A stretch of DNA of 64,000 bases from the NCBI GenBank assembly GCA_035569835.1, contig DATMMF010000028.1, forward strand, positions 40,071 to 104,070, read 5' to 3'. The notes below the pieces were generated by a model, which saw nothing but the letters and a program-made list of their open reading frames with translations, was not told the DNA's origin and did no database searches. A program made the position numbers and the translations under genes. This stretch comes from Solirubrobacteraceae bacterium (GTDB lineage: Bacteria > Actinomycetota > Thermoleophilia > Solirubrobacterales > Solirubrobacteraceae). Shown here piece after piece: positions 22,531 through 36,894 of the stretch (the stretch's first letter is position 1; each line of letters opens with the position of its first letter).

Positions 22531-22544
22531 CGAACGTATGTTCG
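22531..22544. promoter_or_regulatory. LexA SOS box (Gram-positive type)
   Basis: CGAACGTATGTTCG matches CGAAC-N4-GTTCG, 1 bp upstream of the imuB ATG; TTGACT (22566-22561) lies 17 nt upstream of GAACAT. Confidence 0.9.
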
Positions 22545-22638
22545 CATCCGGCGGCGTCGTAGTCAAAACCGGGTGCTGTGCAGGGACTTCACGAGATGTC
22601 GCCCGCCTCTTGCACCGAGGCGCGCTAGCGTGACCGTC

Positions 22639-23028: not shown

Positions 23029-23448
23029 ATGCCCGTGGTGATGGACGGGAACTCCGACACGCCCGAGGCGAGCCAACCGCGCACGCTCAGCGACGGCACC
23101 ATCGCGACGGTGGCGACCGTGATCGGCGCGCTTGTCGCGATCCCCGCGCTGCTGGCGCTGCTCGGCACCGCCGCGATCCGGCTGGGCGGCTCCTCCACGG
23201 GCACCGGCATCGCCGCGATCTTCGACTTCGCCTACCTGCTCCTCGGCGTGGGCCTGATGATGCGCCGCGAGCTCGCGCGCCAGATCTACTGTGTGCTCGC
23301 CGTGATCAGCCTTGTCCTGGACCTGGGCGGCGTCATCCTGGGCGGCGGACACCACCTCGCCGGCTACCTCGCAGGCCTTCTCCTGACCGGCGCCCTGCTC
23401 TACTTCCTGACGCGGCCTGACGTCGCCCGCGCCTTCCACTCGGCCTAG
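23029..23448 (+). CDS. Hypothetical membrane protein (about 4 TM)
   Basis: 139-aa ORF with four hydrophobic segments. Confidence 0.65.
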   Translation: MPVVMDGNSDTPEASQPRTLSDGTIATVATVIGALVAIPALLALLGTAAIRLGGSSTGTGIAAIFDFAYLLLGVGLMMRRELARQIYCVLAVISLVLDLGGVILGGGHHLAGYLAGLLLTGALLYFLTRPDVARAFHSA

Positions 23449-24518
23449 AGCGCCGAGTCCGGAGGCCGCTTCGCCCACGAAGGCACACGTGGGCGCACCC
23501 GCAGCAGCGCGCGCCACGTCGGCGCGTCGAGGACGCCGGTGCGGGCCAGGCGGTGATGTGCCTGGAAGCGGACGAGCGCCCGCCCCGTCTGCGCGCCGAA
23601 GAAGCCGCCCGCGGGCAGATGCGCGCCCGCTCCGTTGAGCAGCTCCTGTGCCCACAGCACCTCGTCGCCGTCCGCGCCCGGCCTGACCGTCGCCGGCCGC
23701 GCCGCCAGCCGGATCGCGGGCGCGACGTGCGGGACGACCGCGGCGAGCAGCGCCGGTTCGGCGGAGTCGAGGTCGAAGAAGCTCGCGCCGGGCGATCCGT
23801 GCTCCGCCGCGAACGTCGCGAACTGCCCCACTTCCGCTGCGCCGACCCCGCCGTAGAGCTGGCCCACCGGCACGATCGGGCGGCCGTAGAGGGCGTTCTC
23901 GCCGATCGCGACGCTGACGGCGGCGCCCGGCGTCAGGCCGAGGTCGTGCCAGTAGGCCTGCGGCATGTCCAGCTGGAAGGCGCCGGGGCCCAGGAACACC
24001 GAGTACGGGAACTTGGGGTGCTGGAGTGTCTCCGCCTGGCCCGCCAGCGCGATCGGGAAGGCGCGTCCGAGCGCGCCTCGCAGCGAGCGCACGAACAGCT
24101 GCGCCTGCCCGTAGCGGCTGTCGTACTGGCCCTCGGCGTCGACGACCAGACATTGCGCGCCCGCGCGCACGGCCGCGACCGCGGCCGCCGCTTCACCCGC
24201 CGGGTCGGTGCCGTAGGCGAAGGTCCACGCGCACACGGACAGTCCCGAAGCCCGCAGCGCCGAGACGAGCGCCGGGGTGAACTGCGGGTCGGGCGTCGTG
24301 CCGTCAGCGGCCTTGACGAGCAGCGTGCGCACTCCAGCGGGCCTCGCCTGCGCCGCGATCGCCGCTGGTTCTCCGGCGTGGGCGATCCACAGGCTGGGGG
24401 CGCGCAGCGGCGACGGCTCGGCGCCCGCGGCCGGCGCGCAGAACGCGAGCAGCACGATCGCCGCGGCGCACGGCCTGCCCCGGCGCGCAGCGGCGCGCAG
24501 GCGGGTGCCGCGCCGCAC
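23445..24518 (-). CDS. Secreted putative GH25-like muramidase with C-terminal peptidoglycan-binding domain
   Basis: Signal peptide; VKAADG, VVDAE (DxE) and PQAYW; C-terminal GFFGAQTGRALVRFQ..TGVLDAPTW is PG_binding_1-like. Confidence 0.7.
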   Translation of the reverse strand: MRRGTRLRAAARRGRPCAAAIVLLAFCAPAAGAEPSPLRAPSLWIAHAGEPAAIAAQARPAGVRTLLVKAADGTTPDPQFTPALVSALRASGLSVCAWTFAYGTDPAGEAAAAVAAVRAGAQCLVVDAEGQYDSRYGQAQLFVRSLRGALGRAFPIALAGQAETLQHPKFPYSVFLGPGAFQLDMPQAYWHDLGLTPGAAVSVAIGENALYGRPIVPVGQLYGGVGAAEVGQFATFAAEHGSPGASFFDLDSAEPALLAAVVPHVAPAIRLAARPATVRPGADGDEVLWAQELLNGAGAHLPAGGFFGAQTGRALVRFQAHHRLARTGVLDAPTWRALLRVRPRVPSWAKRPPDSAL

Positions 24519-24524
24519 GCGGGC

Positions 24525-25421
24525 TCAGTCCATCGTCAGCGGACCCTCAGCCGAGCCGCTGAGGAACTGCCGCACGAACGCGTTGTCCGAGGAGAACATG
24601 CGCTCGGCATCGCCCGCTTCGACGATCCGCCCGCGCCACAGCACCGCGATGTACTCGCCGATCTGGCGCGCGGAGGCGATGTTGTGGGTGACGACGATGT
24701 AGGTGCCTTTGTAGATCTGGTGCATCTCCTGGATCAGTTCGCACAGCAGCGCGGTGCGTACCGGGTCCAGCCCCGAGTCGGGCTCGTCGAAGATCACGAC
24801 GTCGGGCTCCATCACGAGCGCGCGGGCGAAGCCGGCGCGCTTGCGCATCCCGCCGGAGAGCTGCGAGGGCGCGTCGTCCATCGCCTCACCGAGGCCCACG
24901 TCGCGCAGGCGCTGGACGACGCGCTCGGCGATCGCCCCCTCGGTCATGTCCGTGTGCTGCCGCAGCGGGAAGGCGACGTTGTCGTAGACCGACATCGACC
25001 CGAACAGCGCACCGTCCTGGAACAGAACGCCGATCTTCCTGCGCAGCTCGAGCAGGTCGTGCATGTTCAGCCGCCCGACTGACTGTCCTTTGACGACGAT
25101 CTCGCCCGCGTCGGGGAACATCAGCCCGATGATGTGCTTGATCAGCACGCTCTTCCCGGTTCCCGACGGTCCCAGCACGACGGTGATCGTGTCCTCCGGG
25201 AAGGCGACGTTCAGGCCGTTGAGCACCGGCACCCCGCCGAGCCGCTTGACCACGTCCTTGCAGCGGATCGACCAGTCGCCCTCCTTGCCGGCGAGTTCCA
25301 AGCCGGTCGAGTGGAACTCGAAGCTGTCGTCGCCAGCACCGGGTTCGCTGGTCGCTTGCCCTCCGGGCAGATCGCCCTGGGCGTCGGGGTCGGCGTTGGG
25401 ATCGTAGGGCTCGGACATCAT
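24525..25421 (-). CDS. mkl: Mkl/MceG/MlaF-type ABC ATPase
   Basis: GPSGTGKS, LFQDGALF, NVAFPLRQHT, LSGGMRKRAGFARAL, DEPDSGLDP; overlaps the last mce gene. Confidence 0.9.
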   Translation of the reverse strand: MMSEPYDPNADPDAQGDLPGGQATSEPGAGDDSFEFHSTGLELAGKEGDWSIRCKDVVKRLGGVPVLNGLNVAFPEDTITVVLGPSGTGKSVLIKHIIGLMFPDAGEIVVKGQSVGRLNMHDLLELRRKIGVLFQDGALFGSMSVYDNVAFPLRQHTDMTEGAIAERVVQRLRDVGLGEAMDDAPSQLSGGMRKRAGFARALVMEPDVVIFDEPDSGLDPVRTALLCELIQEMHQIYKGTYIVVTHNIASARQIGEYIAVLWRGRIVEAGDAERMFSSDNAFVRQFLSGSAEGPLTMD

Positions 25422-27013
25422 TTTCCTTCGAAGACCACGTGGGGGAACTGGCTGGATTTGCCGTTGAAGCTGTTGGGCCCCTGCTGCCTGCACGGCGGGG
25501 CGGGCACCGCGTTCACGCCCGCGGGCTGTTTCTCGGCCTTTTCGAGTTCTTCCTTTTCCGCGGGTTCTTTCGATTCGAAGCCCGTGAAGGTTTCGGGACG
25601 GTTCGCAACGTGGAAGTTGATCAGCCTCAGGATAAGAGGTGCCGGGATCGTTTCCGACGGCGGCCCGTCGGCGGACGGCGTCGCGTTCCCGCACGAGCTC
25701 GTGCTGAACATCGGCAGGCCGCCGCTGATCAGGTTGTAGGTCCCCGGCAGCGGGTACGCGTTGGAGCGGTTGTTGCCGATCTTGCTCGGGTAGAGCGCGA
25801 GGCTTTCGGTGTTGAGGGTCGCGAGCGTCATCAGCATGTGCTGCTTGGGCCCTTCCGGTTCGCCTTCCGCGTTGACGGGAAGGTTCCCGTTGCCCTGCTG
25901 GAAGTTGGAGGCGGCGGTGAGGTTCGCGAAGAACGCCTGGACCTCTTTCACGTAGGTGCCGGTGTACTGCAGGAACGGGTCGAGGTTGTGCAGCACCGGG
26001 CGGAAGTTTTCGAGCACCGGTTCGGTCAGCTTCAGCGACTTGCCGAGGTCGGGCAGGCCCTTCTTCGCGGCCTTCGTGAGCGGGCCGAGCGAGGTCAGGA
26101 ACTGATCGAGCTGGGGCGCGAAGGGCTTCGCCGCGGACAGCAGCGAGGACAGGCTGCGCTCGGCGGGCCTGAATTCTTCGAGGAACGGGTTCGCCACGAC
26201 CGCGAATTTGTCGATTTCTTTCAGCGCCGTACGGGAGTTGCGCTCGAAGGGCGGCAGCAGGCGCCACGTCTGTGCCCACGCTTCGCTCGCCGAGGCGGCG
26301 GCTTTGAAGGTGTGTTCGCCGTTGACGATCACGCCTTCGAGCTGGTGGTCGCGGCTGGCCAGGGCATTGAACACGACGCCAGTGTTCTTGACGAGATCCC
26401 GCAGCGCCCCCTCCTGCGTGACGAGGATGTTCAGCAGCTGGTTGGCGTGTTCGGTGAACGGTTCCAGGCGCGCGAAGGAGGCGTTGACCTGTTCGCCGCG
26501 CCCGTTGAGGCCTTCGGCCACCGATTGCTGCCAGATCTTGAACGCCGCGCGGGTCTTGGGATCGAAGGTCGCAAGGATGTCGTCGAGCGTGACAGACGGT
26601 TCGACGTTGCCGGGCGGAAGCCGCCCGCCGTCGGCGACGTAGGGGCCGACGTGCGCCTGCGGGATCAGCTGGATGTAGGTCTCGCCGAGCAGCGTCTTCT
26701 GGCGGATGATCGCGTGGACGTTGCGCCGGATCGGGGCGTACTTCTGGTTGATTTCAACCGTCGCGATCGTCTTGCCTTCGGAGCCCTTCTTGACGGAGAT
26801 CACGTGGCCGACGTCGACGCCGCTGATGCGCACGTCGGACTGTTCGGAGAGCGCCAGCACGCGCGGGAACGCGATCGCCATGCGGTAGCCCTTCGGTTTC
26901 AGGGGCAGCGGCCCGCCGAAGGACTCCCACAGGAACAGCAGCAGCCCGAAGCAGCTCAGCGCGAACAGGATGATCACGAGGATGTTGCCGAGCGTGGGCG
27001 CGCGCTTCTGCAT
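25418..27013 (-). CDS. Mce/MlaD family protein (6th in operon)
   Basis: N-terminal TM, SDVRISGVDVGHV MlaD domain, long helical region. Confidence 0.92.
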   Translation of the reverse strand: MQKRAPTLGNILVIILFALSCFGLLLFLWESFGGPLPLKPKGYRMAIAFPRVLALSEQSDVRISGVDVGHVISVKKGSEGKTIATVEINQKYAPIRRNVHAIIRQKTLLGETYIQLIPQAHVGPYVADGGRLPPGNVEPSVTLDDILATFDPKTRAAFKIWQQSVAEGLNGRGEQVNASFARLEPFTEHANQLLNILVTQEGALRDLVKNTGVVFNALASRDHQLEGVIVNGEHTFKAAASASEAWAQTWRLLPPFERNSRTALKEIDKFAVVANPFLEEFRPAERSLSSLLSAAKPFAPQLDQFLTSLGPLTKAAKKGLPDLGKSLKLTEPVLENFRPVLHNLDPFLQYTGTYVKEVQAFFANLTAASNFQQGNGNLPVNAEGEPEGPKQHMLMTLATLNTESLALYPSKIGNNRSNAYPLPGTYNLISGGLPMFSTSSCGNATPSADGPPSETIPAPLILRLINFHVANRPETFTGFESKEPAEKEELEKAEKQPAGVNAVPAPPCRQQGPNSFNGKSSQFPHVVFEGK

Positions 27014-28540
27014 CTAGCGCCTCCCCCCCTGTGCCGCCTTGGCGCGCTGGGTGGCCTTCGTGCCCCTCGCGGTGTGCCCGAACGGCGCGGAGCTGAGGTT
27101 GCCGAACGGCGCCGACGGGGTCTTCGCGCCGCTGCGCTCGCTCGCGCGGCCGCTCGAGGTCGTCGTGCTCGCGCCCTTCGGGATCACGCCGAGGCTTTCG
27201 CATTCCTGTTTGGTCGGCGGCTTCAGGAGCCCGACGAGCAGCGAGACGTTTTCGTTGACTTCGCTCGCCCCGACGAGGATCGGAAGGATGTGGCAGTTGA
27301 AGTAGATCAGGCTGCGCCCGACGGCTCCCCGCGAGTCCGCGGTGCTCACAACGCTGTTGAGGTTGTGGTTTGCCCAGGCGAGGAAGAAGTCGAAGCCGGC
27401 CTTGCCCTTGCCCGGGTTGAAGGCGAGCTCGTTGAAGAATTCGTTGAGCACGGAGAAGGCGCTCGACAGCTTCGGGAACGCTTCCGAGAGCGCTGTGGTG
27501 CTCGGCGCGAGTTCGTTGACCGTCGGCAGGATTTCCCGCGCGAACGGCCTGATCTCGTTCTTGATCACCGGCGTCGTGTTGATCGCGAGCTTCTTGCTCG
27601 CCCGCTCGGCCGGCGCGAGCGATTTCGCGAACGGGTTGAGCTTGGTCAGCGCCGGCGTCACCTGTTCCGAGGCGGTGCCCAGCTTGCCGAGCGCTTTGCC
27701 GGTCTTGTGCAACGCGCCGGGCAGCAGTTTCAGCGTGCTCTGGAGGTTCTGGTCCTCCTTGGCGAACGTCTGGAAGACGGCGTTCGAGGCGTTGACCAGT
27801 TCGGCGATCTGCGTGTCCTTGGTGCCGAGCGCTTCGGTCAGCAGCCGGAAGTTGTGGATCGAGCGGCTGATGTTGGCCGAGCGCTTCGACAGTTCGCGCT
27901 GGATCTCGTCGCCGTAGCGCGCGGCCGGCTCGAAGCGCTTGAGCGTCGCGGCGAAGGCCGTGCCGTTGTTTTCGAAGCCCTGCCCCGCGCCGGCGAGCAG
28001 CTCCTGCAGGTACGCGCGCGTTTCGGCATCGAGACCGGCGAGGAATTCGTCGAAGTTGACGTTCGGCGCCGTCTGCGACAGCGGGATCACTTCGCCGCTC
28101 TTCAGCTTTCCGGCCGACGGCGTCCCCGGGTTGACCTCGATCGTGATGTCCTGCAGCTGGGTCTTCGGCCTCAGCAGCAGCGTCGCGTTCTTGTAGAAGC
28201 GCGCGTATTTCGGGGTCACTTTCATGGTGACCACCGCGACCCCCTCGTGCAGCGACACGCTCGCGACTTCGCCGACTTTCGCGCCGGCGATCGTCACGGC
28301 CTGGCCCTGCCCCGGCGTGACGGCCTGCGCGGTCTGGAACTCCGCCTTCAGGTCGTAGTATTCGTGCCCGAGCACGGGCACCCAGCTCGGCAGATGCAGG
28401 TTCTCGTGCGCGAGGATGTAGCCGCCGACGACGGTCGCGATCACGACCATCGTCACCACCGCGATGAACGCCGTGCGGTAGCGCTCGATCTGCTCGCGGA
28501 CCGACAGGCCGCCTTCGTGGCTGTGATCGGCCGGGTTCAC
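27014..28540 (-). CDS. Mce/MlaD family protein (5th)
   Basis: N-terminal TM, VTIAGAKVGEV MlaD domain. Confidence 0.92.
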   Translation of the reverse strand: MNPADHSHEGGLSVREQIERYRTAFIAVVTMVVIATVVGGYILAHENLHLPSWVPVLGHEYYDLKAEFQTAQAVTPGQGQAVTIAGAKVGEVASVSLHEGVAVVTMKVTPKYARFYKNATLLLRPKTQLQDITIEVNPGTPSAGKLKSGEVIPLSQTAPNVNFDEFLAGLDAETRAYLQELLAGAGQGFENNGTAFAATLKRFEPAARYGDEIQRELSKRSANISRSIHNFRLLTEALGTKDTQIAELVNASNAVFQTFAKEDQNLQSTLKLLPGALHKTGKALGKLGTASEQVTPALTKLNPFAKSLAPAERASKKLAINTTPVIKNEIRPFAREILPTVNELAPSTTALSEAFPKLSSAFSVLNEFFNELAFNPGKGKAGFDFFLAWANHNLNSVVSTADSRGAVGRSLIYFNCHILPILVGASEVNENVSLLVGLLKPPTKQECESLGVIPKGASTTTSSGRASERSGAKTPSAPFGNLSSAPFGHTARGTKATQRAKAAQGGRR

Positions 28541-30039
28541 GGTGTCCCGTCCGCGGGTCCGTTGGCCAGCGGGCCGTTGACTTCAGACGGTGCCTGCGTG
28601 TCGCAGGGCACGAGCGGCTTGTACGGCGGCTCGGAGGCAGGGAACGCGGGGCGCGTTCCGAGCGGCTGCAGAGGCGAGCGTGTGAGCAGCTTCAGCCCGG
28701 TGCCCGTTTTCACCCCGACCGCCGAGACCGGCCGGGAGACGAGCGTCTGGCCGCTGTTGCCGACCAGGAACTGGGTGAACGGGCCGTTGCCGTCGAAGCT
28801 CTGCCCGATCCCGGCGAGGCCGACCAGGCTGTACCAGAATTCCTTGTAGTTTTCGACGCCCGAGGTCGCGTTGCCGTCCTGGAGCTTCGCGTTGCCGGTC
28901 GGATAGATCACCTTCGTCAGGCACTTGTTGAAGGCTTCGGTCTGCTTGAACAGCGGCACCTGTTCGGCACTGAGTTTGGCCAGCGCGGGCGTCGCTTCTG
29001 AGAGCCCCTTGGCGACGCCGCCGAGCTCGCTCGGCTGCAGCGAGGCCTCGACCTGTTCGATCCACGGAATCTGCGCCTTCACCGTTTCGGGCGTCAGCTT
29101 CACGCCCGGGAGGATGTCGTTCGCGAACGCCCGCGTCGGCGCGAAGGAGCGGCCGAGCTCGCGCAGGCCGTGGGTGATCCCGTGCAGCGAGCTCGGCAGC
29201 TCGTGCACGGTCGCGCTGAGGCTCTGGTTCTGGACGGCGAAGGCTTCGAAGAACGTGTTGAAGTTGCCGATCAGTTCGCCGAGCTGCTGCTCGTGGACGT
29301 TCAGCGCCGCCGTCACACGCCCGATGCTCGCGATCAGCTTGGAGAAGTCGTGCGGTTCGGTGCCCGTGATCGCCTGGTTGATGATCGCGCCGCCGCGAAG
29401 GGCTTCGGGCGCGAGGTGGTACGTCTTGTTGATCGCTTCGGCGCCCGAGAGCCCGCGGACCTCGGGCAGCTGTTCGGCGTCTTCGGCGGCGTTCGGCCTC
29501 TTCGTCAGGCCTTCGCCGTAGTAGATCAGGAACTTCTGCAGGTTCGCGCGCGTGTCGGTGTTGAGCGCATCGAGCACCTGGTCGAGCTGCACCGGGTTGG
29601 CCGTCTGCGTGATCGGGATCGTGTAGCCGGAGGAGACGGTCTTCGCCGATGGGCTGCCGGGCTGCAGTTCGACGAACCAGTTGCCTTCGAGGAAGATCCG
29701 GGGCCGGATCTTGACCGTCGCGTCGGTGTGGATCGGCAGCCCCTTTTCTTCGATTTCCATCGTCACGAGCCCGGTGTTGCCTTCACGCTTGATCGACGCG
29801 ACCTTGCCCACGTCGACGCCGGCGATCCGCACCGGCGACTTGGAGTGGACGTTCATCGCCGAGTTGAATTGCGCCTTGAGCTGGAAGCCGTGTTTGAACG
29901 GGATGTGCTTGGTGAAGCCGAAGTAGATCGCGACCGCGATGATGATCAGGAAGACAACCGCGAATTTCACCGCGCTGCCGCGCCCGAGCTCCGAGACCGG
30001 GGTCTCGTCGCGGCGCCTCCAGAAGCGCAGGCGGCTCAT
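28537..30039 (-). CDS. Mce/MlaD family protein (4th)
   Basis: Start ATG 30039 (MSRLRFW), TM, SPVRIAGVDVGKV. Confidence 0.92.
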   Translation of the reverse strand: MSRLRFWRRRDETPVSELGRGSAVKFAVVFLIIIAVAIYFGFTKHIPFKHGFQLKAQFNSAMNVHSKSPVRIAGVDVGKVASIKREGNTGLVTMEIEEKGLPIHTDATVKIRPRIFLEGNWFVELQPGSPSAKTVSSGYTIPITQTANPVQLDQVLDALNTDTRANLQKFLIYYGEGLTKRPNAAEDAEQLPEVRGLSGAEAINKTYHLAPEALRGGAIINQAITGTEPHDFSKLIASIGRVTAALNVHEQQLGELIGNFNTFFEAFAVQNQSLSATVHELPSSLHGITHGLRELGRSFAPTRAFANDILPGVKLTPETVKAQIPWIEQVEASLQPSELGGVAKGLSEATPALAKLSAEQVPLFKQTEAFNKCLTKVIYPTGNAKLQDGNATSGVENYKEFWYSLVGLAGIGQSFDGNGPFTQFLVGNSGQTLVSRPVSAVGVKTGTGLKLLTRSPLQPLGTRPAFPASEPPYKPLVPCDTQAPSEVNGPLANGPADGTP

Positions 30040-31559
30040 TTCTTCTTCCCCTTCTTCTTGGCCGTCTTGATGCCGAGGGCTTCGAGCGTGGAGGCCGGGT
30101 ACGGTTCGCCATAGAGGTCGGTGCCGCGACCTGTGAATTCGGTGCCGGATTCGACGCTGTTCACGTTGCCGAGCACCGCCTGGCCGGGGATGAACCGCTG
30201 CTTGCCCGCTTCGCAGACCTGCTTCTGCCCGGGCGCGCTGACGTTGGGGTACGGGTTCACGTGCAGGTGGTTGTTGTCGATGATCGCGCCGCCCTTGCCG
30301 CCGGCTCGTTCGGTCGAGCCGCCGTTCGCCGGCGCCGAGGAGGGGAAGCCCTCGTTGTTCGGGCCGGACGGTGCGAGCATGACGCCGGCGCGCGCGACGG
30401 TGCCGACGCCGATGCTCTCGGACTCGAGGCTCGCGACGTTGCGGAAGGCGAGCGTCCAGTAGTTGCACTTCGCCTGGGAGGGGGCGACGCCTTCGAGCAC
30501 GGGGTTGCCGATTTCGACGGTGTGGGTGAAGTCTTCGAAGGCAAGGTTGATCACCGGGTTGTTGCCGAACTTGGCGAGCGCTTCGGCGGATTCAGCGAGC
30601 GCGCTGTTGAGCTGGGTCGCCGCGGCGAGGTTCGTCTTGCCTTCCGCAAAGCCGTGGGCCAGCGGCGGCGCGACGGTGACGAGATCGGCCGCGGAGGGGC
30701 GCAGCAGGCGCATGAACTCAGTCGCGTTGTTGATCAGCGGCGCCTCGGCCGGCAGTGAGTGAATCGACTGTTCGAGCGAGGCGGGGCCTTCGGCGGTCGC
30801 TTCTTCGAGCTGCTTGCTGACGCCCGCCCAAGCGGTGAAGAACTTGTCGAGGTAGACGTACTGCGCGCCCAGCTGGTTGGCTACCGGCGCGCTCTCTTCG
30901 GCGGAGCGCAGCAGCCCTTTGAAGAACCCGCGAAAATCGGTCTGGGGCGAGGCGAGGTTGGCGAGCACCGGGATCGCGTGGTTCACCACCGGCCGCAGTT
31001 CGGCGATCGTCTTGTTCAGCCCGAGGCCGCGTCCGGCGAGCCCGTCGCCGAAGTTGTTGGTGTTGACCTTGATCGCCTGGCGGGTGTGCTTGTCGAACAT
31101 GTTGAAGAGTTCCTCGATGTTCACCGGTTCGCGGGTCTGGCTCGTGGGGATCGTCGCCCCGGCGTTCAGTTTCTGCGCGGAGGTCCCCTTTTCGAGTTCG
31201 AGGTACTTGAGGCCGATCGCCGAGACCGATTGCACGATCGCTTTGGTGTCGGCGGGCAGCTTTTCGACGCTCTTTTCGAGCTTCAGGTCGGCGATCGCCG
31301 TGACTTTGCCGGTGCGTGGGTTCTGCCTGGGCGACATCGAGCTCACGACGCCGACGCGCGTGCCGGCGATGCGGACCTGGTTGGAGACCTGCAGGCCGGA
31401 CGCCTCCGGGAGAGCGACCTTGATGTTGTAGGTCGGCACGAACGGCAGCCCGTTGTTCGCGTTGTAGGAGAGGAACACGGCCACGACGACGATCAGCGTC
31501 GTGACCGCCCCGATCAGCAGCGGGCTGGCGGCGAGCGAGTTGCGGCGGCGGCGGTCCAT
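30036..31559 (-). CDS. Mce/MlaD family protein (3rd)
   Basis: TM, NQVRIAGTRVGVV. Confidence 0.92.
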   Translation of the reverse strand: MDRRRRNSLAASPLLIGAVTTLIVVVAVFLSYNANNGLPFVPTYNIKVALPEASGLQVSNQVRIAGTRVGVVSSMSPRQNPRTGKVTAIADLKLEKSVEKLPADTKAIVQSVSAIGLKYLELEKGTSAQKLNAGATIPTSQTREPVNIEELFNMFDKHTRQAIKVNTNNFGDGLAGRGLGLNKTIAELRPVVNHAIPVLANLASPQTDFRGFFKGLLRSAEESAPVANQLGAQYVYLDKFFTAWAGVSKQLEEATAEGPASLEQSIHSLPAEAPLINNATEFMRLLRPSAADLVTVAPPLAHGFAEGKTNLAAATQLNSALAESAEALAKFGNNPVINLAFEDFTHTVEIGNPVLEGVAPSQAKCNYWTLAFRNVASLESESIGVGTVARAGVMLAPSGPNNEGFPSSAPANGGSTERAGGKGGAIIDNNHLHVNPYPNVSAPGQKQVCEAGKQRFIPGQAVLGNVNSVESGTEFTGRGTDLYGEPYPASTLEALGIKTAKKKGKKK

Positions 31560-32977
31560 CAGGGATGTTGGGCGGGGTCGCAGGTGAGCAGTTCTCCGTC
31601 GACGAACGGCGAGGAGCCGTCTGCGGCGGGCTGGGTCGCCGCGCCCGGGCAGCGCCGCAGCTGACCCGATTTCAACGGGGCCAGACCCTGGGTCGGGGAG
31701 GTGGGTTTGAGGGTGTCTTTTTCACCCAGGGAGAAGCTCGGGAAGACGGGGCTGACGCGCGCGTAGTTGCCGTCGGCGTCGTAGTAGGCGCCCGACTGGC
31801 CGAACGTGCGCAGCGTGCCGACGAGGTCCGGGGAGTACGGCCCGAAGAACGCGGTGATCGGCGCCGATTCCTTCTCGCCCTGGACGACTGCGGGCGACGC
31901 GGTCGTGAGCTGCTTGTAGAGCACCGGCAGGATCAGGGCGATGTCGGTGAGGTCGTTGTTCGGGCCCGGCCGGCTGAACGCGTTGTTGAAGTTCTTGATC
32001 GCCGGCGTGCCGGTAGTGACCAGCGAGTGCAGGTGGTTGAACAGCGTGATCAACGGCTGCGTCGTCGGTTTGGACGCCTCGACGAGCCGTTCGAGCGCCT
32101 GGAACGTGGCCGGCAGCTCGGCGAACGTCTTGTTGCCTTCGTGCAGCGTGCCCGGCAGCGCTTTCAGGCCCGCCGCGAAGTTCGCCTGCTGGTCGCCAAT
32201 TGCCGTGAACGTCGTGTTGGCGTTTTCGATCAGGCTCGAGAGCGCCGGCGCGCGGGCGCCGATCGTCGTCACGGCCTTGGCCGTTTCGATCAGGAACTTG
32301 GTGAACACCGGCTGGTCGCGCACCAGCTCTTCGAAGAAGTGGTCGGAGGCCGCCAGGAACGGACCGAAGTATTCGGTGGATTCGCCGAACTGCTTCCCGG
32401 CGCCGACGTACAGCGCGGCGTTGCCCTGGATGAACTCCGCGAGGCCCTGGCGCGTCTTCGGGTTCAGCGTGTTGAAGAGCTGGTCGAGGTCGGTGACTTC
32501 TTTGGTCGCGCTCGCCGGCAGCGTCGCACCGTCGTGCAGCGCCGCCGCGTTGTTCGGGCCGGGCGAGAGCTGGATGTAGCGGTTCGCGACGCTCGAGAGC
32601 GAGGGCGTTCGCACCTGCGCCGTCGTGCCCGCGTGCAGAGGCGTCAGCGAGCTGTCGACGTGGATCGTGACGTTCGCCTTGTCATTTGGGGTCAGCGAGA
32701 TGTCGGTCACGCTTCCGACCCGTACGCCGCCGACCTGGACTTCGTTGCCGCGGACGAGCTGCCCCGCTTCGGGGAAGATCAGGTGATAGGTGGCGCCCCC
32801 GCCGGTGCCGAACACGAGGTAGGCGATGATCAGCACGACGAGCGCCAGCGCGCCGATCGCGATGATGCGCGCGTTGGAGACACGCGAGCGCGTCACCGGG
32901 CCGCGCGCGGGCTGGCCGGCGGCAGGCGGCGGGGCGCCCGGAGGAGTCGGCTGGCTCGGGGGGCTAGTCGTGGCCAC
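31559..32977 (-). CDS. Mce/MlaD family protein (2nd)
   Basis: TM, GNEVQVGGVRVGSV. Confidence 0.92.
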   Translation of the reverse strand: MATTSPPSQPTPPGAPPPAAGQPARGPVTRSRVSNARIIAIGALALVVLIIAYLVFGTGGGATYHLIFPEAGQLVRGNEVQVGGVRVGSVTDISLTPNDKANVTIHVDSSLTPLHAGTTAQVRTPSLSSVANRYIQLSPGPNNAAALHDGATLPASATKEVTDLDQLFNTLNPKTRQGLAEFIQGNAALYVGAGKQFGESTEYFGPFLAASDHFFEELVRDQPVFTKFLIETAKAVTTIGARAPALSSLIENANTTFTAIGDQQANFAAGLKALPGTLHEGNKTFAELPATFQALERLVEASKPTTQPLITLFNHLHSLVTTGTPAIKNFNNAFSRPGPNNDLTDIALILPVLYKQLTTASPAVVQGEKESAPITAFFGPYSPDLVGTLRTFGQSGAYYDADGNYARVSPVFPSFSLGEKDTLKPTSPTQGLAPLKSGQLRRCPGAATQPAADGSSPFVDGELLTCDPAQHP

Positions 32978-35219
32978 CGGCTTCCTTTCCGCTCGCCGTC
33001 TGAACCGGGATCGCCGCAGCGGAGGGCTTGCGTGAGACCGAGGGGTCGGGGATCTCGCCCAGCCTCGCGATCAGGCGGCTCCATTGCTGCGGCGAGAGCG
33101 CCGAGGAGAACAGCCCGGCGATGCGCGCAAGGTCGGACTTCGGCGAGGCGAACACGACGCGGATCGCGTCGGCGGCTCCCGCGCTGGTTGCGGTCGCCGA
33201 GGCGTTCGGGTAGCGCATCTGGCTGACGATGCGGCGCGGGCGTGCGAGCCCTTGGAGCATCAGCAGCTTGCGCACGAGCGTGTCGGCGGCGCTCCCCTGC
33301 GTCTGGTGGCCGGCGACCGGCACGCCCCCGACGGCCGTGATCGACATCGCGTCGATCGCCGAGGCGGCTGCGGTGTTCGCGGCCTGCGCGGCGGGCGTCG
33401 CAGGCGCGCAGGGCATACCGGCGACGGTCGGGCGCAGGCCAGAGACCGACAGGTACTCGAGCGCCGCTAGCACGCGCACGTCCACGCGCCCAGAGGAGAC
33501 GTCCTCGCGGCCGCAGGAGCTCAGGCGGATGCCGCCGTCGCGGAGCACCTGCGGCTCGAGCTGCCGCTTGGTCTCCAGCAGCACCTGGCCCACGGTCGGC
33601 GAGGTGGCCAGGAACGGGTTCTCGCCCTTGGCGTGGAAGACCGAGCTGTTCTCGAGCGCCACCCAGCCGTCGAGCACGGGCTTCGGGTCGATCAGCGGAG
33701 CGCCCGGCCCCGCCGGGCGGATCTGGAAGACGATGTGCGGTTCTTCGCCGCCGGCGGCGCCGACGTGACCGAGCACCGTGCCCGCGATCACCTGCACGCC
33801 TTGGCGCAGTTCGTGGAGGTAGACCTCGTTGGCGCCTTCGCGGAACGCCTGTACGTGAGGCGCCACGGTCTGTGGCGCGTCCTGCTGCGCCGGCCGCGAC
33901 GTGGTGCTGTGCGCCGGGCGCGAGCTTTCCGGCGCCGCTTCCAGCCCCGCGGCCGCACCGAGCGCGAGGCCCGAGACGGCGGCGCCCTCCGAGACCGGCG
34001 AGCGCGGCTGCACGCCGGCCGTCGCGGGGCCGGACGGCGCCGGTTCGCGCCGGGCGGCACCGAGCGCGGGGTCGAGTTGGGAGTCGACGTGCGGCTCGAT
34101 CACCGGGTAGACGCGCTGGATGTCGCCGAGCCGCGCGTAGGTGTATTCGTTGCCGTAGGCGTCCCGCAGCGTCACGAAGCGCCCGAGCGTCGGCGAGTCG
34201 CCCGTCTGCACGACTTCACCGTCCTGGGAGGCGATCACAGGGGAGCCCGCGGCGGCGTAGATCGCCGTGCCGGGGATCGTCCGCGTGGCGCCCTTCGGCG
34301 TGCGCACCGTCGGGAACCCGTCGGCGAAGTGGGCGGCGGCGTAGACGGGGAAGCGCGCCTCGGTCAGCCCCGTGATCGCGCCCAGCAGTTCCGAGGGCGT
34401 GCCGGCGAGCAGCTGCGCACGCAGCATCACCGAGCTGACATACGCCTGCGAGTGGTTGTAGGCGAAGATCGCCGCGCGGATGTTGTTGTCCCCGCCCGCG
34501 GCGTGCAGGTACCTCGCCGCGGCGAAGATCGCGTCGGCCGGGTTGTACGGGTCCATGTAGCCGTCGCCGTTCGCGTCCACGCCGTAGGTCGCCCACGAGG
34601 ACGGCAGGAACTGCATCCAGCCCTCGGCCCCGGCGCTGGATACCGACAGGTCGCGGCCGTAGTCGGTCTCGACCTCGTTGATCGCGGCCAGCACCTGCCA
34701 GGGGATGCCGTACGCGGCGCCCGCCGCCTGGAAGATCGGGAGCAGGAACGGCGGGATCTCGAAGTCTTCGATGAAGAAGCTCGGCACGCCGAACGCCGCG
34801 CCGCGCAGCGCCGGCGGCAGCTGGGGCGTGAGCGAGGAGGGCGCCGCCGCCTTGTGCCCTCCGTGCGGCGTCGCGTTCGTGCTCTGAGTTTGCGATTCCC
34901 CGGCGCCGGCGGAGGGGCTCGCGGCGTGGCGCGGCTTCGAGGAGCCGCCGCTCGCGCTCTGCGGCTGCTGGGTCTGCACGCTCGGCGCTTCTTCGGTCGT
35001 CGTCGTCGTCGTCGTCGGCGCCGGCGGTTCGGCGGCCGGCGCCGGCGAGGAGGTCGAGGTCGTTTCGGGCTGCGGTTCGGCGACGGTGCTGGTGACCGAG
35101 GGCGGCGGCGCGATCGAGGTCGTTTCGGCTTCGGCGGCCGGGGCCGTCGCGGGCAGCGCCAGCACGATCGCCGCCGTCGCGCCGGCAGTGATCAGCAGGT
35201 GGACGCGAGCGGGACTCAT
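32964..35219 (-). CDS. Secreted lytic transglycosylase with P/T/S linker, degenerate split M23 domain and C-terminal domain
   Basis: VLAAINEVETDYG..SSAGAEGWMQF..DPYNPADAIFAAARYL; M23-like AGSPVIASQDGEV, YARL and PHIVFQIR. Confidence 0.88.
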   Translation of the reverse strand: MSPARVHLLITAGATAAIVLALPATAPAAEAETTSIAPPPSVTSTVAEPQPETTSTSSPAPAAEPPAPTTTTTTTEEAPSVQTQQPQSASGGSSKPRHAASPSAGAGESQTQSTNATPHGGHKAAAPSSLTPQLPPALRGAAFGVPSFFIEDFEIPPFLLPIFQAAGAAYGIPWQVLAAINEVETDYGRDLSVSSAGAEGWMQFLPSSWATYGVDANGDGYMDPYNPADAIFAAARYLHAAGGDNNIRAAIFAYNHSQAYVSSVMLRAQLLAGTPSELLGAITGLTEARFPVYAAAHFADGFPTVRTPKGATRTIPGTAIYAAAGSPVIASQDGEVVQTGDSPTLGRFVTLRDAYGNEYTYARLGDIQRVYPVIEPHVDSQLDPALGAARREPAPSGPATAGVQPRSPVSEGAAVSGLALGAAAGLEAAPESSRPAHSTTSRPAQQDAPQTVAPHVQAFREGANEVYLHELRQGVQVIAGTVLGHVGAAGGEEPHIVFQIRPAGPGAPLIDPKPVLDGWVALENSSVFHAKGENPFLATSPTVGQVLLETKRQLEPQVLRDGGIRLSSCGREDVSSGRVDVRVLAALEYLSVSGLRPTVAGMPCAPATPAAQAANTAAASAIDAMSITAVGGVPVAGHQTQGSAADTLVRKLLMLQGLARPRRIVSQMRYPNASATATSAGAADAIRVVFASPKSDLARIAGLFSSALSPQQWSRLIARLGEIPDPSVSRKPSAAAIPVQTASGKEAGGHD
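34996..35016. repeat. (GTC)7 trinucleotide run encoding a poly-Thr linker
   Basis: Read directly from sequence; encodes T7 in the transglycosylase linker. Confidence 0.9.
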
Positions 35220-35220
35220 C

Positions 35221-36777
35221 TCAGTTCCCGAGCAGGTAGTTGAGCAGCATGCCGTCGGCTTCCGGGCTTTCGTCCGAGGGCGAGTAGTAGGTCGTCCCGG
35301 ACGTCGAGCCCCCGACCGGCTGCGAGCTCGGTGCGCCGCCGGCGGAGTTCGAGGCCGGCGCCGGCGAGCTGCCCGGCGTTTCGCCCGGCGCCGGCGTGCC
35401 CGGGTATTTCGCGTTCGCCTGCGCGGGCGTGGCGCCTTTCAGCACCGCGAGCGTGCGCTCCATCACGAGTCCCGCTGGTTCGTGCGAAACGCTCGCCGCG
35501 CTCGCCTTGGCGCTCGCCGCGACCGTGCCGAGCCGGCGGTTGCAGCTCGGTTCCGTTTTGATGAAGTATTTGACGCACTGGTTGCCGACGCCCTCGGTGC
35601 GCAGGAAGTGCCCGAGCTGGTCGTAACCGTTCGCGGCGCCCGCGCCGAGGAAGATGAAGTCCATGATCCGCTCGAGCCCGCCGGTGTCGCGCAGGCTCGT
35701 GAACAGCGAGGCGAAGTTTTCGCTGAACGGCTTCGCCGGCGTGCCGAGCGCCTTGAGCTGTGCGAGCAGTTTTTTGCTCTGCGTCAAGGCGGGCCCGGAG
35801 CGCTTCGCCGTTTCGCCCGTGCTGATGAAGAACTTTTCAGAGCTCGCGGAGAAGCCGGGCAGGTTGACGAATGCCTTCGAGATCGACGGGGCCGCCTTGT
35901 TGAGGCTCGTGAACGTCGGCAGCGTCTGGTCAGCGAACCGTTCGAGGCGTTCCATCGCCGGGCCGAGCTGGCGCAGGAACGGCGGGAACAGCTGCAGGTT
36001 GCGCGCGAGCGCGCCCCGCTGAGCGGCGCTGGCCTTGGCGACCGTGTTGCTCTGCGCGAGGAAGTCGGCGACCTGCTGGCGCACGTGGGCGAACGGCGCG
36101 AGCGCGCGGTCGGAGTCTTCCGCGAGCTTCGTCAGCACCTGGTTCTCGCTCGCGAGGATCGAGAGCACCTTGTCGAATTCGCGCAGCGCGGGGTTCGCGC
36201 GCCGGATCACTTCGTGGAGGTCGCTGCCCCGCCCCGCGAGGCCGGCGCCGAGTTCGTTGAGGATGATCGTCAGCCGCTGCCGTTCGGGGAGGCGGTTGAT
36301 GTCACCCAGGAGGTCGACGTCGACGGGGCTGCTCGTGTTCTGGACGGGCAGCAGGTACTGGCCGGAGCCTTCGTGGCCGCCGGGGATTTTGTGCAGCGGC
36401 GGCGGCAGCGCCGTGCCGGGCACGCGGGGCTGCGTCGGCAGGCAGTCGACGTACTTCTCGCCGATCAGCGCCTGCGGGCGGATTTCGCAGCTCGCGTCGG
36501 CGCGGAAGTCCTTGAAGCCGTTGTTGTCGATGCTCAGGACGACGGCGGCCTTCGCAGCCGGCGTCGGCGTGACCGAGGTGACCTTGCCGACCTTGACGCC
36601 GGCGATCTTGACCTGCTCCCCGGGGATGATGTTGCCGGCGTCGTCGAAGATCGCCCGCACTTCGTAGCTGCCGTTGGAGCCGCCGGCGGAGAGGGCGAGC
36701 ACCACGAGCACGGCCACGGCGCATGCCGAGGCGGCCCCCACGACCGCCCTCCTGCGACCCACGCTCCTGTCTCTCAC
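35221..36777 (-). CDS. Mce/MlaD family protein (1st in operon)
   Basis: TM, GEQVKIAGVKVGKV; start placed at GTG 36777 after GAAGGA. Confidence 0.92.
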   Translation of the reverse strand: MRDRSVGRRRAVVGAASACAVAVLVVLALSAGGSNGSYEVRAIFDDAGNIIPGEQVKIAGVKVGKVTSVTPTPAAKAAVVLSIDNNGFKDFRADASCEIRPQALIGEKYVDCLPTQPRVPGTALPPPLHKIPGGHEGSGQYLLPVQNTSSPVDVDLLGDINRLPERQRLTIILNELGAGLAGRGSDLHEVIRRANPALREFDKVLSILASENQVLTKLAEDSDRALAPFAHVRQQVADFLAQSNTVAKASAAQRGALARNLQLFPPFLRQLGPAMERLERFADQTLPTFTSLNKAAPSISKAFVNLPGFSASSEKFFISTGETAKRSGPALTQSKKLLAQLKALGTPAKPFSENFASLFTSLRDTGGLERIMDFIFLGAGAANGYDQLGHFLRTEGVGNQCVKYFIKTEPSCNRRLGTVAASAKASAASVSHEPAGLVMERTLAVLKGATPAQANAKYPGTPAPGETPGSSPAPASNSAGGAPSSQPVGGSTSGTTYYSPSDESPEADGMLLNYLLGN

Positions 36778-36796
36778 CCCGTTCGATCCTTCCCTC

Positions 36797-36842
36797 AAGA
36801 CAAAGCGAGCGACCCCACCCGTGCTGCGGCGAGGTCGCCCGC
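36797..36842 (-). terminator. Intrinsic terminator/attenuator-like hairpin just upstream of the first mce gene
   Basis: Minus strand GCGGGCGACC..GGTCGCTCGC (10 bp, one G-U) followed by TTTGTCTT. Confidence 0.55.
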
Positions 36843-36894
36843 CTCACTATCCGTGGGAGCTTACGCCTTCCCTGGCATCAGCTCTCCGCTTGCC

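What the first reader, a model, noticed from the sequence alone, without database searches (positions are those of the whole stretch)
23445..36777. Mce operon with two built-in peptidoglycan hydrolases and no YrbE permease: candidate cell-wall-spanning Mce conduit in a probable monoderm
Seen: nine co-directional, tightly coupled genes (gaps of 6 nt or less, or overlaps) in the order mce - lytic transglycosylase/M23 - mce x5 - mkl ATPase - GH25-like/PG-binding protein. No yrbE/mlaE permease and no recognisable mam gene lies in or next to the operon. Established: mycobacterial Mce systems are yrbEA/B + mceA-F heterohexamers spanning to the mycomembrane, with mceG encoded elsewhere, and cell-wall hydrolases are not canonical operon members. 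Inference: six paralogs form a heterohexameric needle, and the co-encoded hydrolases open the peptidoglycan for it, as dedicated transglycosylases do for T3SS/T4SS/flagella. If the host lacks an outer membrane, what the needle reaches is an open question.
Basis: partly seen in the sequence, partly recalled or inferred. Interest (0 to 1): 0.85.

Follow-up and report, generated by a model that had tools for sequence, protein, structure and literature searches.

The report
Mce operon with embedded wall-cutting enzyme
A soil actinobacterium (family Solirubrobacteraceae) carries a lipid-transporter-like Mce gene cluster that always has a peptidoglycan-cutting enzyme gene wedged between its first two genes and never has its membrane permease nearby. 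This suggests, without proving it, that the transporter's "needle" brings its own tool for getting through the cell wall.

Summary
On the minus strand, 23445-36777 holds nine tightly coupled genes: mce, SLT/M23, five mce, an MceG/MlaF-type ATPase and a PG_binding_1 protein. No MlaE/YrbE gene lies in the 64-kb window.

The core order (mce1, SLT protein, mce2-6, usually the ATPase) recurs in 80 related species genomes, all but one labelled Solirubrobacteraceae or Solirubrobacterales. None has MlaE within 10 kb.

Three points need correcting:
- **One core hydrolase, not two.** The GH25-like/PG-binding gene is adjacent only in the closest relatives (2 of 56 species loci). In another genome it lies about 65 kb away.
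- **Only the transglycosylase looks active.** Its catalytic motif is invariant. The M23 domain is degenerate (DipM-like), and a third, C-terminal LAS-peptidase-like domain has lost its zinc motifs here.
- **"No permease" holds at the locus, not shown for the genome.** Published counts for the order show MlaE elsewhere (Patulibacter: 12 MlaD, 2 MlaE on another contig). Seven of 70 loci also lack the ATPase.

Best reading: a modular Mce cassette served by a remote YrbE engine, with a recruited lytic transglycosylase acting as wall space-maker or anchor. This is a new variant of a known kind. I found no description in the searchable literature.

The parts
35221..36777 (-). mce1: the first MlaD-domain protein. 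It has an N-terminal TM helix, an MlaD domain and a helical region. The start is GTG 36777 (GGAAGGA upstream) or TTG 36798.
   Evidence: Pfam MlaD 2.9e-14 and NCBIfam Mtu_fam_mce 1.1e-28. Alternative starts are shown. An orthologue sits directly upstream of the SLT gene in 75/75 species loci.
32964..35219 (-). SLT-dLytM-LAS-like protein, 751 aa. It has a Sec-type signal peptide, a Pro/Thr/Ser-rich linker of about 110 aa, an MltB-like lytic transglycosylase domain, a degenerate split M23 domain and a C-terminal LAS-like domain whose zinc motifs are lost.
   Evidence: Pfam SLT_2 2e-16, SLT 8e-11 and M23 4e-11. There is a 1-nt gap to mce1 and a 14-nt overlap with mce2. The position is conserved in about 80 species.
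34425..34772 (-). Lytic transglycosylase catalytic domain (residues about 150-265). The motifs are NEVETDYG (catalytic Glu184) and GWMQFLP.
   Evidence: It aligns to the E. coli Slt35/MltB 'GVETRWG' region. The motifs are invariant in 119/119 homologues and present in 86/86 operon-embedded copies.
33705..34352 (-). Degenerate LytM (M23-like) domain (residues about 290-505), split by an insert of about 100 aa. The insert carries a subfamily-specific conserved motif, PATAGVQPRSPVSEGAAVSGLALGAAAGLE.
   Evidence: The best solved match is DipM, described in published work (my knowledge, not checked here) as a catalytically inactive LytM factor. The HxxxD aspartate is replaced by A/T/S, the HxH motif reads H-I-V, and the third His is variable.
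32967..33704 (-). C-terminal domain (residues about 506-751). It is homologous to a LAS/M15-like zinc-peptidase domain, but in this window both zinc motifs are lost (NTAAASAIDA and AADAIRVVF).
   Evidence: Stand-alone relatives carry S-x-H-x-x-G-x-A-V-D-I and D-H-x-D-H-I-H-V-G-F. Pfam gives weak Peptidase_M15_4 and Extensin-like_C hits. The AF2 model has pLDDT 83. The top Foldseek hits, not significant, are MepA and Hedgehog N-domain.
31559..32977 (-). mce2
   Evidence: MlaD 5.2e-16 and Mce4_CUP1 5.9e-11.
30036..31559 (-). mce3
   Evidence: MlaD 3.3e-13.
28537..30039 (-). mce4
   Evidence: MlaD 1.7e-13.
27014..28540 (-). mce5
   Evidence: MlaD 2.1e-7 and Mtu_fam_mce 1.3e-27.
25418..27013 (-). 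mce6
   Evidence: MlaD 7.2e-16.
24525..25421 (-). MceG/MlaF-type ABC ATPase, 298 aa, with an acidic N-terminal extension of about 50 aa.
   Evidence: The best PDB hit is M. smegmatis MceG, 2.9e-65. NCBIfam MlaF scores 2.3e-60. It follows mce6 in 63/70 species loci and is absent in 7.
23445..24518 (-). PG_binding_1 protein with a weakly GH25-like N-terminal domain. It is an adjacent gene, not a conserved member of the system.
   Evidence: PG_binding_1 1.1e-11. GH25 is sub-threshold at E 0.01-0.02. It is present next to the operon only in L004, L005, L011 and L012 (2/56 of the species loci). In the genome of L001 its homologue lies about 65 kb away.
36895..37677 (-). sec260: a conserved secreted all-beta protein of 260 aa encoded directly upstream. 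It is probably a separate, strongly expressed transcription unit.
   Evidence: It is upstream in 73/73 loci. It has no Pfam or NCBIfam hit. The AF2 model has pLDDT 78 and no PDB fold match. Three metatranscriptomes cover 36782-37713 at several-fold higher depth than the mce genes.
36806..36821 (-). Terminator-like hairpin followed by a T-rich tract, between sec260 and mce1.
   Evidence: Found by the consensus scan. Metatranscriptome contigs of sec260 end at 36782-36855. The evidence is weak.

Best explanation
Proposed mechanism: the locus is the wall-spanning half of an actinobacterial Mce-type ABC lipid or hydrophobic-substrate transporter in a monoderm Solirubrobacteraceae soil bacterium.

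The parts would work as follows:
- Six distinct Mce paralogues, each with one N-terminal membrane helix, an MlaD domain and a long helical region, form the heterohexameric ring and needle.
- The operon's MceG/MlaF-type ATPase powers the transporter.
- The YrbE/MlaE permease pair that must couple the two is encoded elsewhere in the genome and may be shared between cassettes. This mirrors mycobacteria, where the shared, remotely encoded part is MceG.
- The gene wedged between mce1 and mce2 encodes a secreted protein derived from a stand-alone three-domain wall hydrolase family (lytic transglycosylase, degenerate LytM domain, LAS-type peptidase).
- In this lineage only the transglycosylase keeps its catalytic motifs. 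Made in step with the Mce subunits, it would cut glycan strands locally so that the needle can be threaded through or seated in the thick peptidoglycan.
- The two dead peptidase-like domains would serve as a regulatory, wall-binding or docking module.

Shown here: domain content, motif states, gene order and its conservation, absence of MlaE at the locus, and in-situ transcription of parts of the locus.

Inferred: hexamer assembly, a remote permease in this particular genome, the space-maker role, and the substrate.
For: - Domains and tight coupling are established.
- Across 80 species loci from GTDB genomes, mce1 is upstream in 75/75, mce2 downstream in 74/76 and mce2-6 all present in 68/70. 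Each paralogue's best match is its positional counterpart.
- The SLT catalytic motif is invariant in 119/119 homologues and 86/86 embedded copies.
- The protein family is large (991 clusters at E < 1e-30). Its more distant members stand alone, outside mce operons, with intact LAS motifs. L007, L010 and L172 do so with full flanks. L009 is cut at its upstream end and matched only the second of my two LAS patterns.
- Of the embedded copies, 8 of 86 still keep the LAS motifs, so recruitment into the operon came before the decay.
- The dLytM domain's closest solved relative is DipM, which published work describes as a regulator of lytic transglycosylases and an amidase (my knowledge, not checked here).
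- The ATPase is closest to MceG and MlaF, which pair with YrbE/MlaE in the solved complexes.
- Grasekamp et al. 2023 report multiple MlaD and MlaE homologues in monoderm Solirubrobacterales. Patulibacter americanus has 12 MlaD in two clusters and 2 MlaE on another contig. Thermoleophilum album has 12 MlaD and 2 MlaE.
- Seven of 70 loci lack the ATPase too, which shows that the cassette and the engine are separable.
- Metatranscriptome contigs identical to the window fall inside mce1, mce3 and mce5.
Against: - No MlaE gene was shown in the genome that carries this window, nor in any Solirubrobacteraceae genome. The evidence is at order level and comes from a published table.
- Conserved gene order over a family-level clade also covers unrelated neighbours (ACAD, AIRS), so synteny alone is weak evidence of function.
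- No transcript spanning the mce1-SLT-mce2 junctions was found.
- No interaction or activity data exist.
- The SLT protein could be the cell's general autolysin that merely sits in the operon.
- I could not establish whether genomes with the embedded copy also keep a stand-alone copy.
Confidence: 0.55

Rival explanations
1. Hitch-hiker. The SLT-dLytM protein is an ordinary housekeeping autolysin for growth or division that became fixed inside the mce operon in one lineage. It has no Mce-specific role, and its co-expression is incidental.
For: - The same protein family occurs widely as a stand-alone gene away from mce operons (L007, L010 and L172 with full flanks; L009 is cut at its upstream end).
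- The whole 20-kb neighbourhood, including the unrelated ACAD and AIRS genes, is equally syntenic in the 80 loci, so this clade conserves gene order in general.
- No paralogue in the same genome has been shown.
Against: - The gene lies between mce1 and mce2 with a 1-nt gap and a 14-nt overlap, and it has stayed there in every locus with enough flank (75/75 and 74/76).
- The embedded subfamily has its own sequence signature in the dLytM insert, and in 78 of 86 copies it has lost the LAS zinc motifs. This points to a change of function after recruitment.
Confidence: 0.2
2. Permease-free machine. The six Mce membrane helices and the ATPase work without any MlaE/YrbE, or with an unrecognised membrane partner, so the locus is a complete new kind of Mce system.
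For: - No MlaE lies within 10 kb of the operon in about 85 loci, nor in the 64-kb window.
- The ATPase is encoded in the operon in 63/70 loci.
Against: - MceG/MlaF-type ATPases in every solved complex sit on MlaE/YrbE.
- Genomes of the same order do encode MlaE, apart from the mce clusters.
- Seven loci lack the ATPase as well. This fits shared remote components better than a self-sufficient locus.
- No multi-spanning membrane protein is conserved at the locus.
Confidence: 0.07
3. Wall-remodelling controller. The Mce ring and the ATPase act like FtsEX, using ATP-driven movements to switch the attached SLT/dLytM protein on and off. The output would then be controlled peptidoglycan cleavage rather than lipid transport.
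For: - A degenerate LytM domain is the hallmark of the adaptors controlled by FtsEX (EnvC) and of DipM (my knowledge, not checked here). DipM is the closest solved match here.
- The protein is encoded inside an ABC-type operon.
Against: - The stand-alone relatives carry the same dLytM domain without any ABC partner, so the domain's role predates the operon.
- Six different Mce paralogues with long helical regions (Mce4_CUP1 hits) are the signature of a transport tunnel.
- No precedent exists.
Confidence: 0.08

Closest known systems
Mycobacterial Mce1/Mce4 transporters (YrbEA/B + MceA-F + MceG; structure 8FED/8FEE)
   Same: Both have six tandem MlaD-domain paralogues with an N-terminal membrane helix and a helical needle region. 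Both use an MceG-type ATPase (best PDB hit). Both have modular genetics, with one component encoded away from the cassette.
   Different: - Here the permease is missing from the locus and the ATPase is usually present. In M. tuberculosis it is the reverse.
- There are no recognisable Mam/Mas genes.
- A lytic transglycosylase gene sits between the first and second mce genes.
- The host has no mycomembrane (order called monoderm in PMC10665443).
- Sequence similarity to Mce1A-F is low (best 8e-10), and no one-to-one orthology is visible.
Dedicated lytic transglycosylases of envelope-spanning machines (VirB1 of type IV secretion, EtgA/IpgF of type III secretion, FlgJ/SltF of flagella)
   Same: Both are goose-lysozyme/SLT-type enzymes with a catalytic Glu, encoded inside the operon of a large structure that must cross peptidoglycan.
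   Different: - No such enzyme has been described for any MCE system in the searchable literature.
- This one is a 751-aa three-domain protein with two inactivated peptidase-like domains and a long low-complexity linker.
- No interaction with the machine has been shown.
LytM factors (DipM, EnvC, NlpD)
   Same: Both have an M23 fold that has lost its zinc and catalytic residues. DipM is the closest solved match. DipM-type factors are reported to stimulate lytic transglycosylases and amidases (my knowledge).
   Different: Here the degenerate domain is fused in cis to the transglycosylase it might regulate. It is also split by an insert of about 100 residues.
LAS zinc peptidases (MepA/M74, VanX/VanY/M15, Hedgehog N-domain)
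   Same: Stand-alone relatives, and 8 of 86 embedded copies, carry S-x-H-x-x-G-x-A-V-D-I and D-H-x-[DN]-H-I-H motifs. The top fold matches are MepA and Hedgehog.
   Different: In the window both motifs are gone. The fold match is not significant (E 0.55), and the Pfam hits are far below threshold.
Streptomyces mce operon (a monoderm actinobacterium with mceG-yrbEAB-mceA-F; my knowledge)
   Same: It is an Mce system in an actinobacterium without an outer membrane, so 'what does the needle reach' is already an open question there.
   Different: The Streptomyces operon is complete (permeases and ATPase included), and no wall hydrolase has been reported in it.

Membership tests
Actinobacterial Mce ABC transporter (Mce1-4 type) | Six tandem paralogous genes, each with an N-terminal TM helix, an MlaD domain and a helical extension | tested here: met
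   Pfam MlaD is found in six of six proteins. Mce4_CUP1 is found in five of six, above Pfam's threshold only in mce2. NCBIfam Mtu_fam_mce scores 1e-25 to 4e-36, below its curated cut-off. TM helices are visible in the sequences.
Actinobacterial Mce ABC transporter (Mce1-4 type) | Two YrbE/MlaE permease genes at the head of the operon | tested here: not met
   There is no MlaE in the 64-kb window or within 10 kb in about 85 related loci. The genome-wide state was not testable here. Order-level literature shows MlaE elsewhere.
Actinobacterial Mce ABC transporter (Mce1-4 type) | MceG/Mkl-type ATPase | tested here: met
   The best PDB hit is M. smegmatis MceG, 2.9e-65, and NCBIfam MlaF scores 2.3e-60. 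It is encoded in the operon in 63/70 loci.
Actinobacterial Mce ABC transporter (Mce1-4 type) | Mce-associated membrane (Mam/Mas) genes downstream | tested here: inconclusive
   No such gene is recognisable. The downstream gene is the PG-binding protein or an unrelated gene. No dedicated Mam model was searched.
Actinobacterial Mce ABC transporter (Mce1-4 type) | Heterohexamer assembly and lipid transport | not testable with these tools
   This needs multimer modelling, purification or uptake assays.
Machine-dedicated lytic transglycosylase | SLT/MltB-type domain with the catalytic Glu | tested here: met
   SLT_2 2e-16. E184 in NEVETDYG aligns to Slt35 GVETRWG. The motif is invariant in 119/119 homologues and present in 86/86 embedded copies.
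Machine-dedicated lytic transglycosylase | Encoded within the operon of the machine | tested here: met
   It lies between mce1 and mce2, with mce1 upstream in 75/75 and mce2 downstream in 74/76 species loci. The junctions are a 1-nt gap and a 14-nt overlap.
Machine-dedicated lytic transglycosylase | Required for, or physically bound to, the machine | not testable with these tools
Active M23 metallopeptidase | HxxxD and HxH zinc/catalytic motifs | tested here: not met
   The Asp is replaced by A/T/S, HxH reads H-I-V, and the third His is variable, across the whole family.
LAS (M15/M74-like) zinc peptidase, C-terminal domain | H-x(n)-D and H-x-H zinc motifs | tested here: not met
   Both are lost in the window (NTAAASAIDA and AADAIRVVF). 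They are present in stand-alone relatives and in 8 of 86 embedded copies.
LAS (M15/M74-like) zinc peptidase, C-terminal domain | LAS fold | tested here: inconclusive
   The AF2 model has pLDDT 83. The top Foldseek hits are MepA and Hedgehog N-domain, but at E 0.55-1.4 and TM about 0.33.
GH25 muramidase (N-terminal domain of the last gene) | Match to the GH25 family model above threshold | tested here: not met
   It scores 15-17 bits against a cut-off of 27. Of 35 homologues, 25 give sub-threshold hits, the best at E 1e-3. A profile search of PDB hits only the PG_binding_1 part.
GH25 muramidase (N-terminal domain of the last gene) | Catalytic DxE motif in a TIM-like barrel | tested here: inconclusive
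   D127-A128-E129 is invariant in 35 homologues.

The most novel reading that the evidence does not exclude
The SLT-dLytM protein is a stoichiometric subunit that docks on the Mce needle through its two inactivated peptidase-like domains. ATP-driven movements of the Mce/YrbE/MceG engine gate its glycan-cutting activity, in the way FtsEX gates EnvC. The system would then be a peptidoglycan-embedded, self-excavating conduit in a bacterium without an outer membrane, or a wall-remodelling device rather than purely a lipid importer.
Probability: 0.1. Interest if true: 0.85.

Novelty: new variant of a known kind. Interest (0 to 1): 0.6.

Why it matters
**The open question.** How MCE needles pass the peptidoglycan layer, and what MCE systems do in actinobacteria that have no outer membrane, are both unresolved. 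The Mce1 structure paper does not mention peptidoglycan at all. The one phylogenomic survey that noticed MlaD/MlaE genes in Solirubrobacterales called their function unknown.

**What this locus adds.**
- It is a natural experiment. In a large, abundant soil lineage (at least 522 species genomes encode a relative of the enzyme), a lytic transglycosylase has been built into the mce operon and then stripped of its peptidase functions.
- It gives a concrete candidate for a dedicated wall-opening or anchoring factor of an MCE machine.
- It shows that mce cassettes can be genetically separated from both the permease and the ATPase.

**If confirmed.** MCE systems would join the secretion systems and flagella that bring their own transglycosylase. 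It would also prompt a search for a functional equivalent in mycobacterial Mce systems.

Tried and rejected
1. **Genome-wide MlaE search.** I could not reach whole genomes. A metagenome scan with an E. coli MlaE plus M. smegmatis YrbE1A alignment used patterns from the variable N-terminus. It returned only E. coli-like and M. smegmatis-like loci and was uninformative. The single genome-contig scan went to the SLT synteny question instead.
2. **Co-transcription.** No RNA run is indexed for the SLT gene. Metatranscriptome contigs are short and none crosses an mce junction. The promoter and terminator scans were not enriched over shuffles.
3. **One-to-one orthology with Mce1A-F.** A concatenated query against PDB gave only weak hits: Mce1B and Mce1A to mce2, and Mce1E to mce6. 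No assignment was possible.
4. **sec260 as a lipid carrier or Mam analogue.** The AF2 model is confident but has no significant fold match; the best was a Gram-positive pilin at probability 0.63. No function was assigned.
5. **First idea 'embedded copy = LAS-dead, stand-alone = LAS-intact'.** It was too simple, because 8 of 86 embedded copies keep the motifs.
6. **sec260 and the 1029-aa neighbour as one repeat family.** The similarity is only marginal, E 0.03.
7. **GH25 assignment of the last gene by profile search of PDB.** Only the PG-binding domain matched.

Full report
**What is in the sequence.** The window has about 70% G+C. Between 23445 and 36798 the minus strand carries nine genes whose boundaries I checked base by base. 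Successive stop-to-start distances are 1, -14, -1, -4, -4, 0, -4 and 6 nt. Pfam finds an MlaD domain in six of them (E 2e-7 to 5e-16). Five also have a weaker Mce4_CUP1 helical region, above Pfam's own threshold only in mce2. NCBIfam matches all six to the mycobacterial Mce paralogue family, with scores below that model's curated cut-off. Each has one N-terminal hydrophobic helix.

Gene 2 (32964-35219, 751 aa) has SLT_2, SLT and Peptidase_M23 hits. Gene 8 is an ABC ATPase whose best solved relative is M. smegmatis MceG from the Mce1 complex (2.9e-65), followed by MlaF proteins. Gene 9 has a C-terminal PG_binding_1 domain.

**The permease.** I inspected every ORF with coding-type codon bias in the 64 kb. 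I then took E. coli MlaE from K-12 and most of M. smegmatis YrbE1A from the PDB alignment. With these I searched the window and all fetched loci by tblastn, phmmer and a small profile. Nothing scored better than E = 0.16. The two probes detect each other at 6e-15, so a real MlaE should not have been missed. The absence at the locus is therefore solid.

**Relatives.** The SLT protein has thousands of homologues. Every organism name the sources attach to the 120 best is Solirubrobacteraceae. A scan of one genome per species found at least 522 species with a relative. I annotated the best 80 loci (53-74% identity) against the window's proteins.
- All 80 are MAGs labelled Solirubrobacteraceae or Solirubrobacterales, except one labelled Alphaproteobacteria (L016).
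- Where the contig is long enough, mce1 lies directly upstream of the SLT gene in 75/75 loci and mce2 directly downstream in 74/76.
- All of mce2-6 follow in 68/70 loci, and the ATPase follows in 63/70.
- Each Mce's best match is its positional counterpart, so the six are distinct, stably inherited paralogues.
- Seven loci end at mce6 with no ATPase. In several of them an FHA-domain-like gene (judged by eye) follows on the other strand.
- None of the loci has MlaE within 10 kb.

**The last gene.** The PG-binding protein follows the ATPase only in the window's nearest relatives, and there less tightly. In L004 there is a 93-nt gap. In L005 a gene on the opposite strand lies between them. L011 and L012 also carry the gene.
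- It is absent from the other loci (2/56 of the species loci).
- In the complete MAG chromosome that holds L001, its homologue lies about 65 kb away beside a PMT-type glycosyltransferase.
- Its N-terminal domain gives a sub-threshold GH25 hit, as do 25 of 35 homologues, and a D-A-E triplet is invariant.
- A family profile matches only the PG-binding part of solved structures.

It may well be a muramidase, but it is a neighbour, not a member of the system.

**Anatomy of the embedded enzyme.** After a Sec-type signal peptide and a Pro/Thr/Ser-rich stretch of about 110 residues comes an MltB-like transglycosylase domain. Its NEVETDYG and GWMQFLP motifs align to the catalytic region of E. coli Slt35 and are invariant in 119 homologues.

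The M23 domain is split by an insert of about 100 residues and has lost the HxxxD aspartate, the second His of HxH and the third catalytic His. Its closest solved relative is DipM, which published work describes as an inactive LytM factor (my knowledge).

The C-terminal 250 residues have no Pfam hit here. In more distant family members the same region carries S-x-H-x-x-G-x-A-V-D-I and D-H-x-D-H-I-H-V-G-F, the zinc signature of LAS/M15-type peptidases. Those members give weak Peptidase_M15_4 and Extensin-like_C hits. An AlphaFold model of the window's domain (pLDDT 83) has MepA and the Hedgehog N-domain, both LAS proteins, as its top fold matches. These matches are not significant. In the window both motifs are replaced (NTAAASAIDA and AADAIRVVF).

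**Evolution of the enzyme.** The family is large, with 991 clusters at E < 1e-30. I looked up five members at 36-53% identity.
- Three with full flanks (36, 39 and 45% identity) are stand-alone genes with no mce gene nearby and carry both LAS motifs. One of them comes from a MAG labelled Solirubrobacteraceae.
- A fourth (44%, L009) sits on a 5-kb contig that starts at the gene, so its upstream side is unseen. No mce gene follows it, and it matched only the second of my two LAS patterns.
- The 53% member lies between two mce genes.
- Of 86 embedded copies, 78 have lost the LAS motifs. Eight (L067, L070, L073, L077, L083, L084, L087, L090) keep them.
- The embedded group also has its own conserved segment in the dLytM insert.

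The simplest history is that a three-domain wall hydrolase was recruited into the mce operon, and its peptidase domain then decayed in the main lineage while the transglycosylase was kept.

**Is there a permease elsewhere?** I could not search a whole genome. The literature helps at order level. Grasekamp et al. 2023 found multiple MlaD and MlaE homologues in monoderm Solirubrobacterales and Thermoleophilales and called their function unknown. Their dataset lists the following:
- Patulibacter americanus has 12 MlaD in two clusters on one contig and only 2 MlaE, on another contig.
- Thermoleophilum album has 12 MlaD and 2 MlaE.
- Conexibacter sp. Seoho-28 has 56 MlaD and 14 MlaE.

Mce cassettes without their own permease, served by a pair encoded elsewhere, therefore appear normal in this class. 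The MceG/MlaF identity of the ATPase and the ATPase-less loci point the same way. This is inference for the window's own genome.

**Expression.** The window comes from a soil metagenome. Three soil metatranscriptomes contain contigs identical to parts of mce1, mce3 and mce5 at low depth. They cover the upstream gene sec260 at much higher depth, from a shared end at 37713 to ends at 36782-36855. Those ends lie near a weak hairpin plus T-tract at 36821-36796. sec260 therefore looks like its own strongly expressed unit, with at most read-through into mce1. No contig crosses an mce junction, so co-transcription of the nine genes remains untested.

**Comparison with what is known.** The locus works like the substrate-tunnel half of a mycobacterial Mce transporter. 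It fails one defining feature of the operon, yrbEAB at its head. The embedded enzyme fits the pattern of the dedicated transglycosylases of type III and IV secretion systems and flagella. Full-text searches found no paper linking an mce operon to a transglycosylase or other wall hydrolase, and the Mce1 structure paper does not discuss peptidoglycan. Mce systems in monoderm actinobacteria are already known from Streptomyces (my knowledge), so that part of the puzzle is not new.

**Verdict.** The feature is real, strongly conserved and apparently undescribed. It is a new variant of a known kind. The claims of two hydrolases, an active M23 domain and a permease-free system are not supported.

Noticed in passing
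window 36895-37677 (-), with hairpin 36806-36821: A 260-aa secreted all-beta protein with no family hit lies upstream of the operon in 73/73 related loci. Judging from pairs of its homologues that list the same longest-contig length, some genomes may carry two copies. In three soil metatranscriptomes it is covered at several-fold higher depth than the mce genes, with a shared end at 37713 and ends near a weak terminator-like hairpin. The AF2 model (pLDDT 78) has no significant PDB fold match.
   Followed up: partly
window 40368-43454 (+): A secreted protein of about 1000 aa with no Pfam hit is a conserved divergent neighbour in many loci. It carries repeated 'CP-GS-x-G' segments that weakly resemble sec260 (E 0.03).
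   Followed up: partly
L067, L070, L073, L077, L083, L084, L087, L090 (SLT gene at about 10001-12200 in each full-flank locus): This sub-clade has an operon-embedded SLT protein that still carries intact LAS zinc-peptidase motifs (SEHSTGDAVDI, DHYNHIHVGF). It is an evolutionary intermediate between the stand-alone enzyme and the window's peptidase-dead form.
   Followed up: partly
L072, L076, L078, L079, L081, L085, L086 (downstream of mce6, about 19700-20700): In these species the operon ends at mce6 with no MceG-type ATPase. In several, an FHA-domain-like gene (by eye) follows on the opposite strand. These genomes must encode both the ATPase and the permease elsewhere.
   Followed up: partly
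L016 (CAWJDW010000004.1): This record is labelled 'uncultured Alphaproteobacteria bacterium' but carries the same Solirubrobacteraceae-type operon at 69% identity with many frameshifted fragments. It is probably a mis-binned or mislabelled long-read MAG contig.
   Followed up: no
window 17416-22547 (-): Directly downstream of the PG-binding gene lie a Y-family polymerase-like gene (IMS domain, ImuB-like) and a second DNA polymerase III alpha gene (DnaE2-like). The arrangement looks like an SOS mutagenesis cassette.
   Followed up: partly
window 39062-40312 (+) and 45680-47167 (+): An acyl-CoA dehydrogenase is divergent from the operon region, at 77-93% identity in all related loci. A flavin monooxygenase of the FMO/Baeyer-Villiger type lies nearby. 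This is a weak hint that the substrate is a fatty acid or another hydrophobic compound.
   Followed up: no
window 33950-34040 (-) (SLT protein residues about 395-426): Inside the low-complexity insert of the degenerate M23 domain there is a segment, PATAGVQPRSPVSEGAAVSGLALGAAAGLE. It is highly conserved in the operon-embedded subfamily but is replaced by a different motif (KERLFAHPxR) in stand-alone relatives. It is a candidate docking element.
   Followed up: partly
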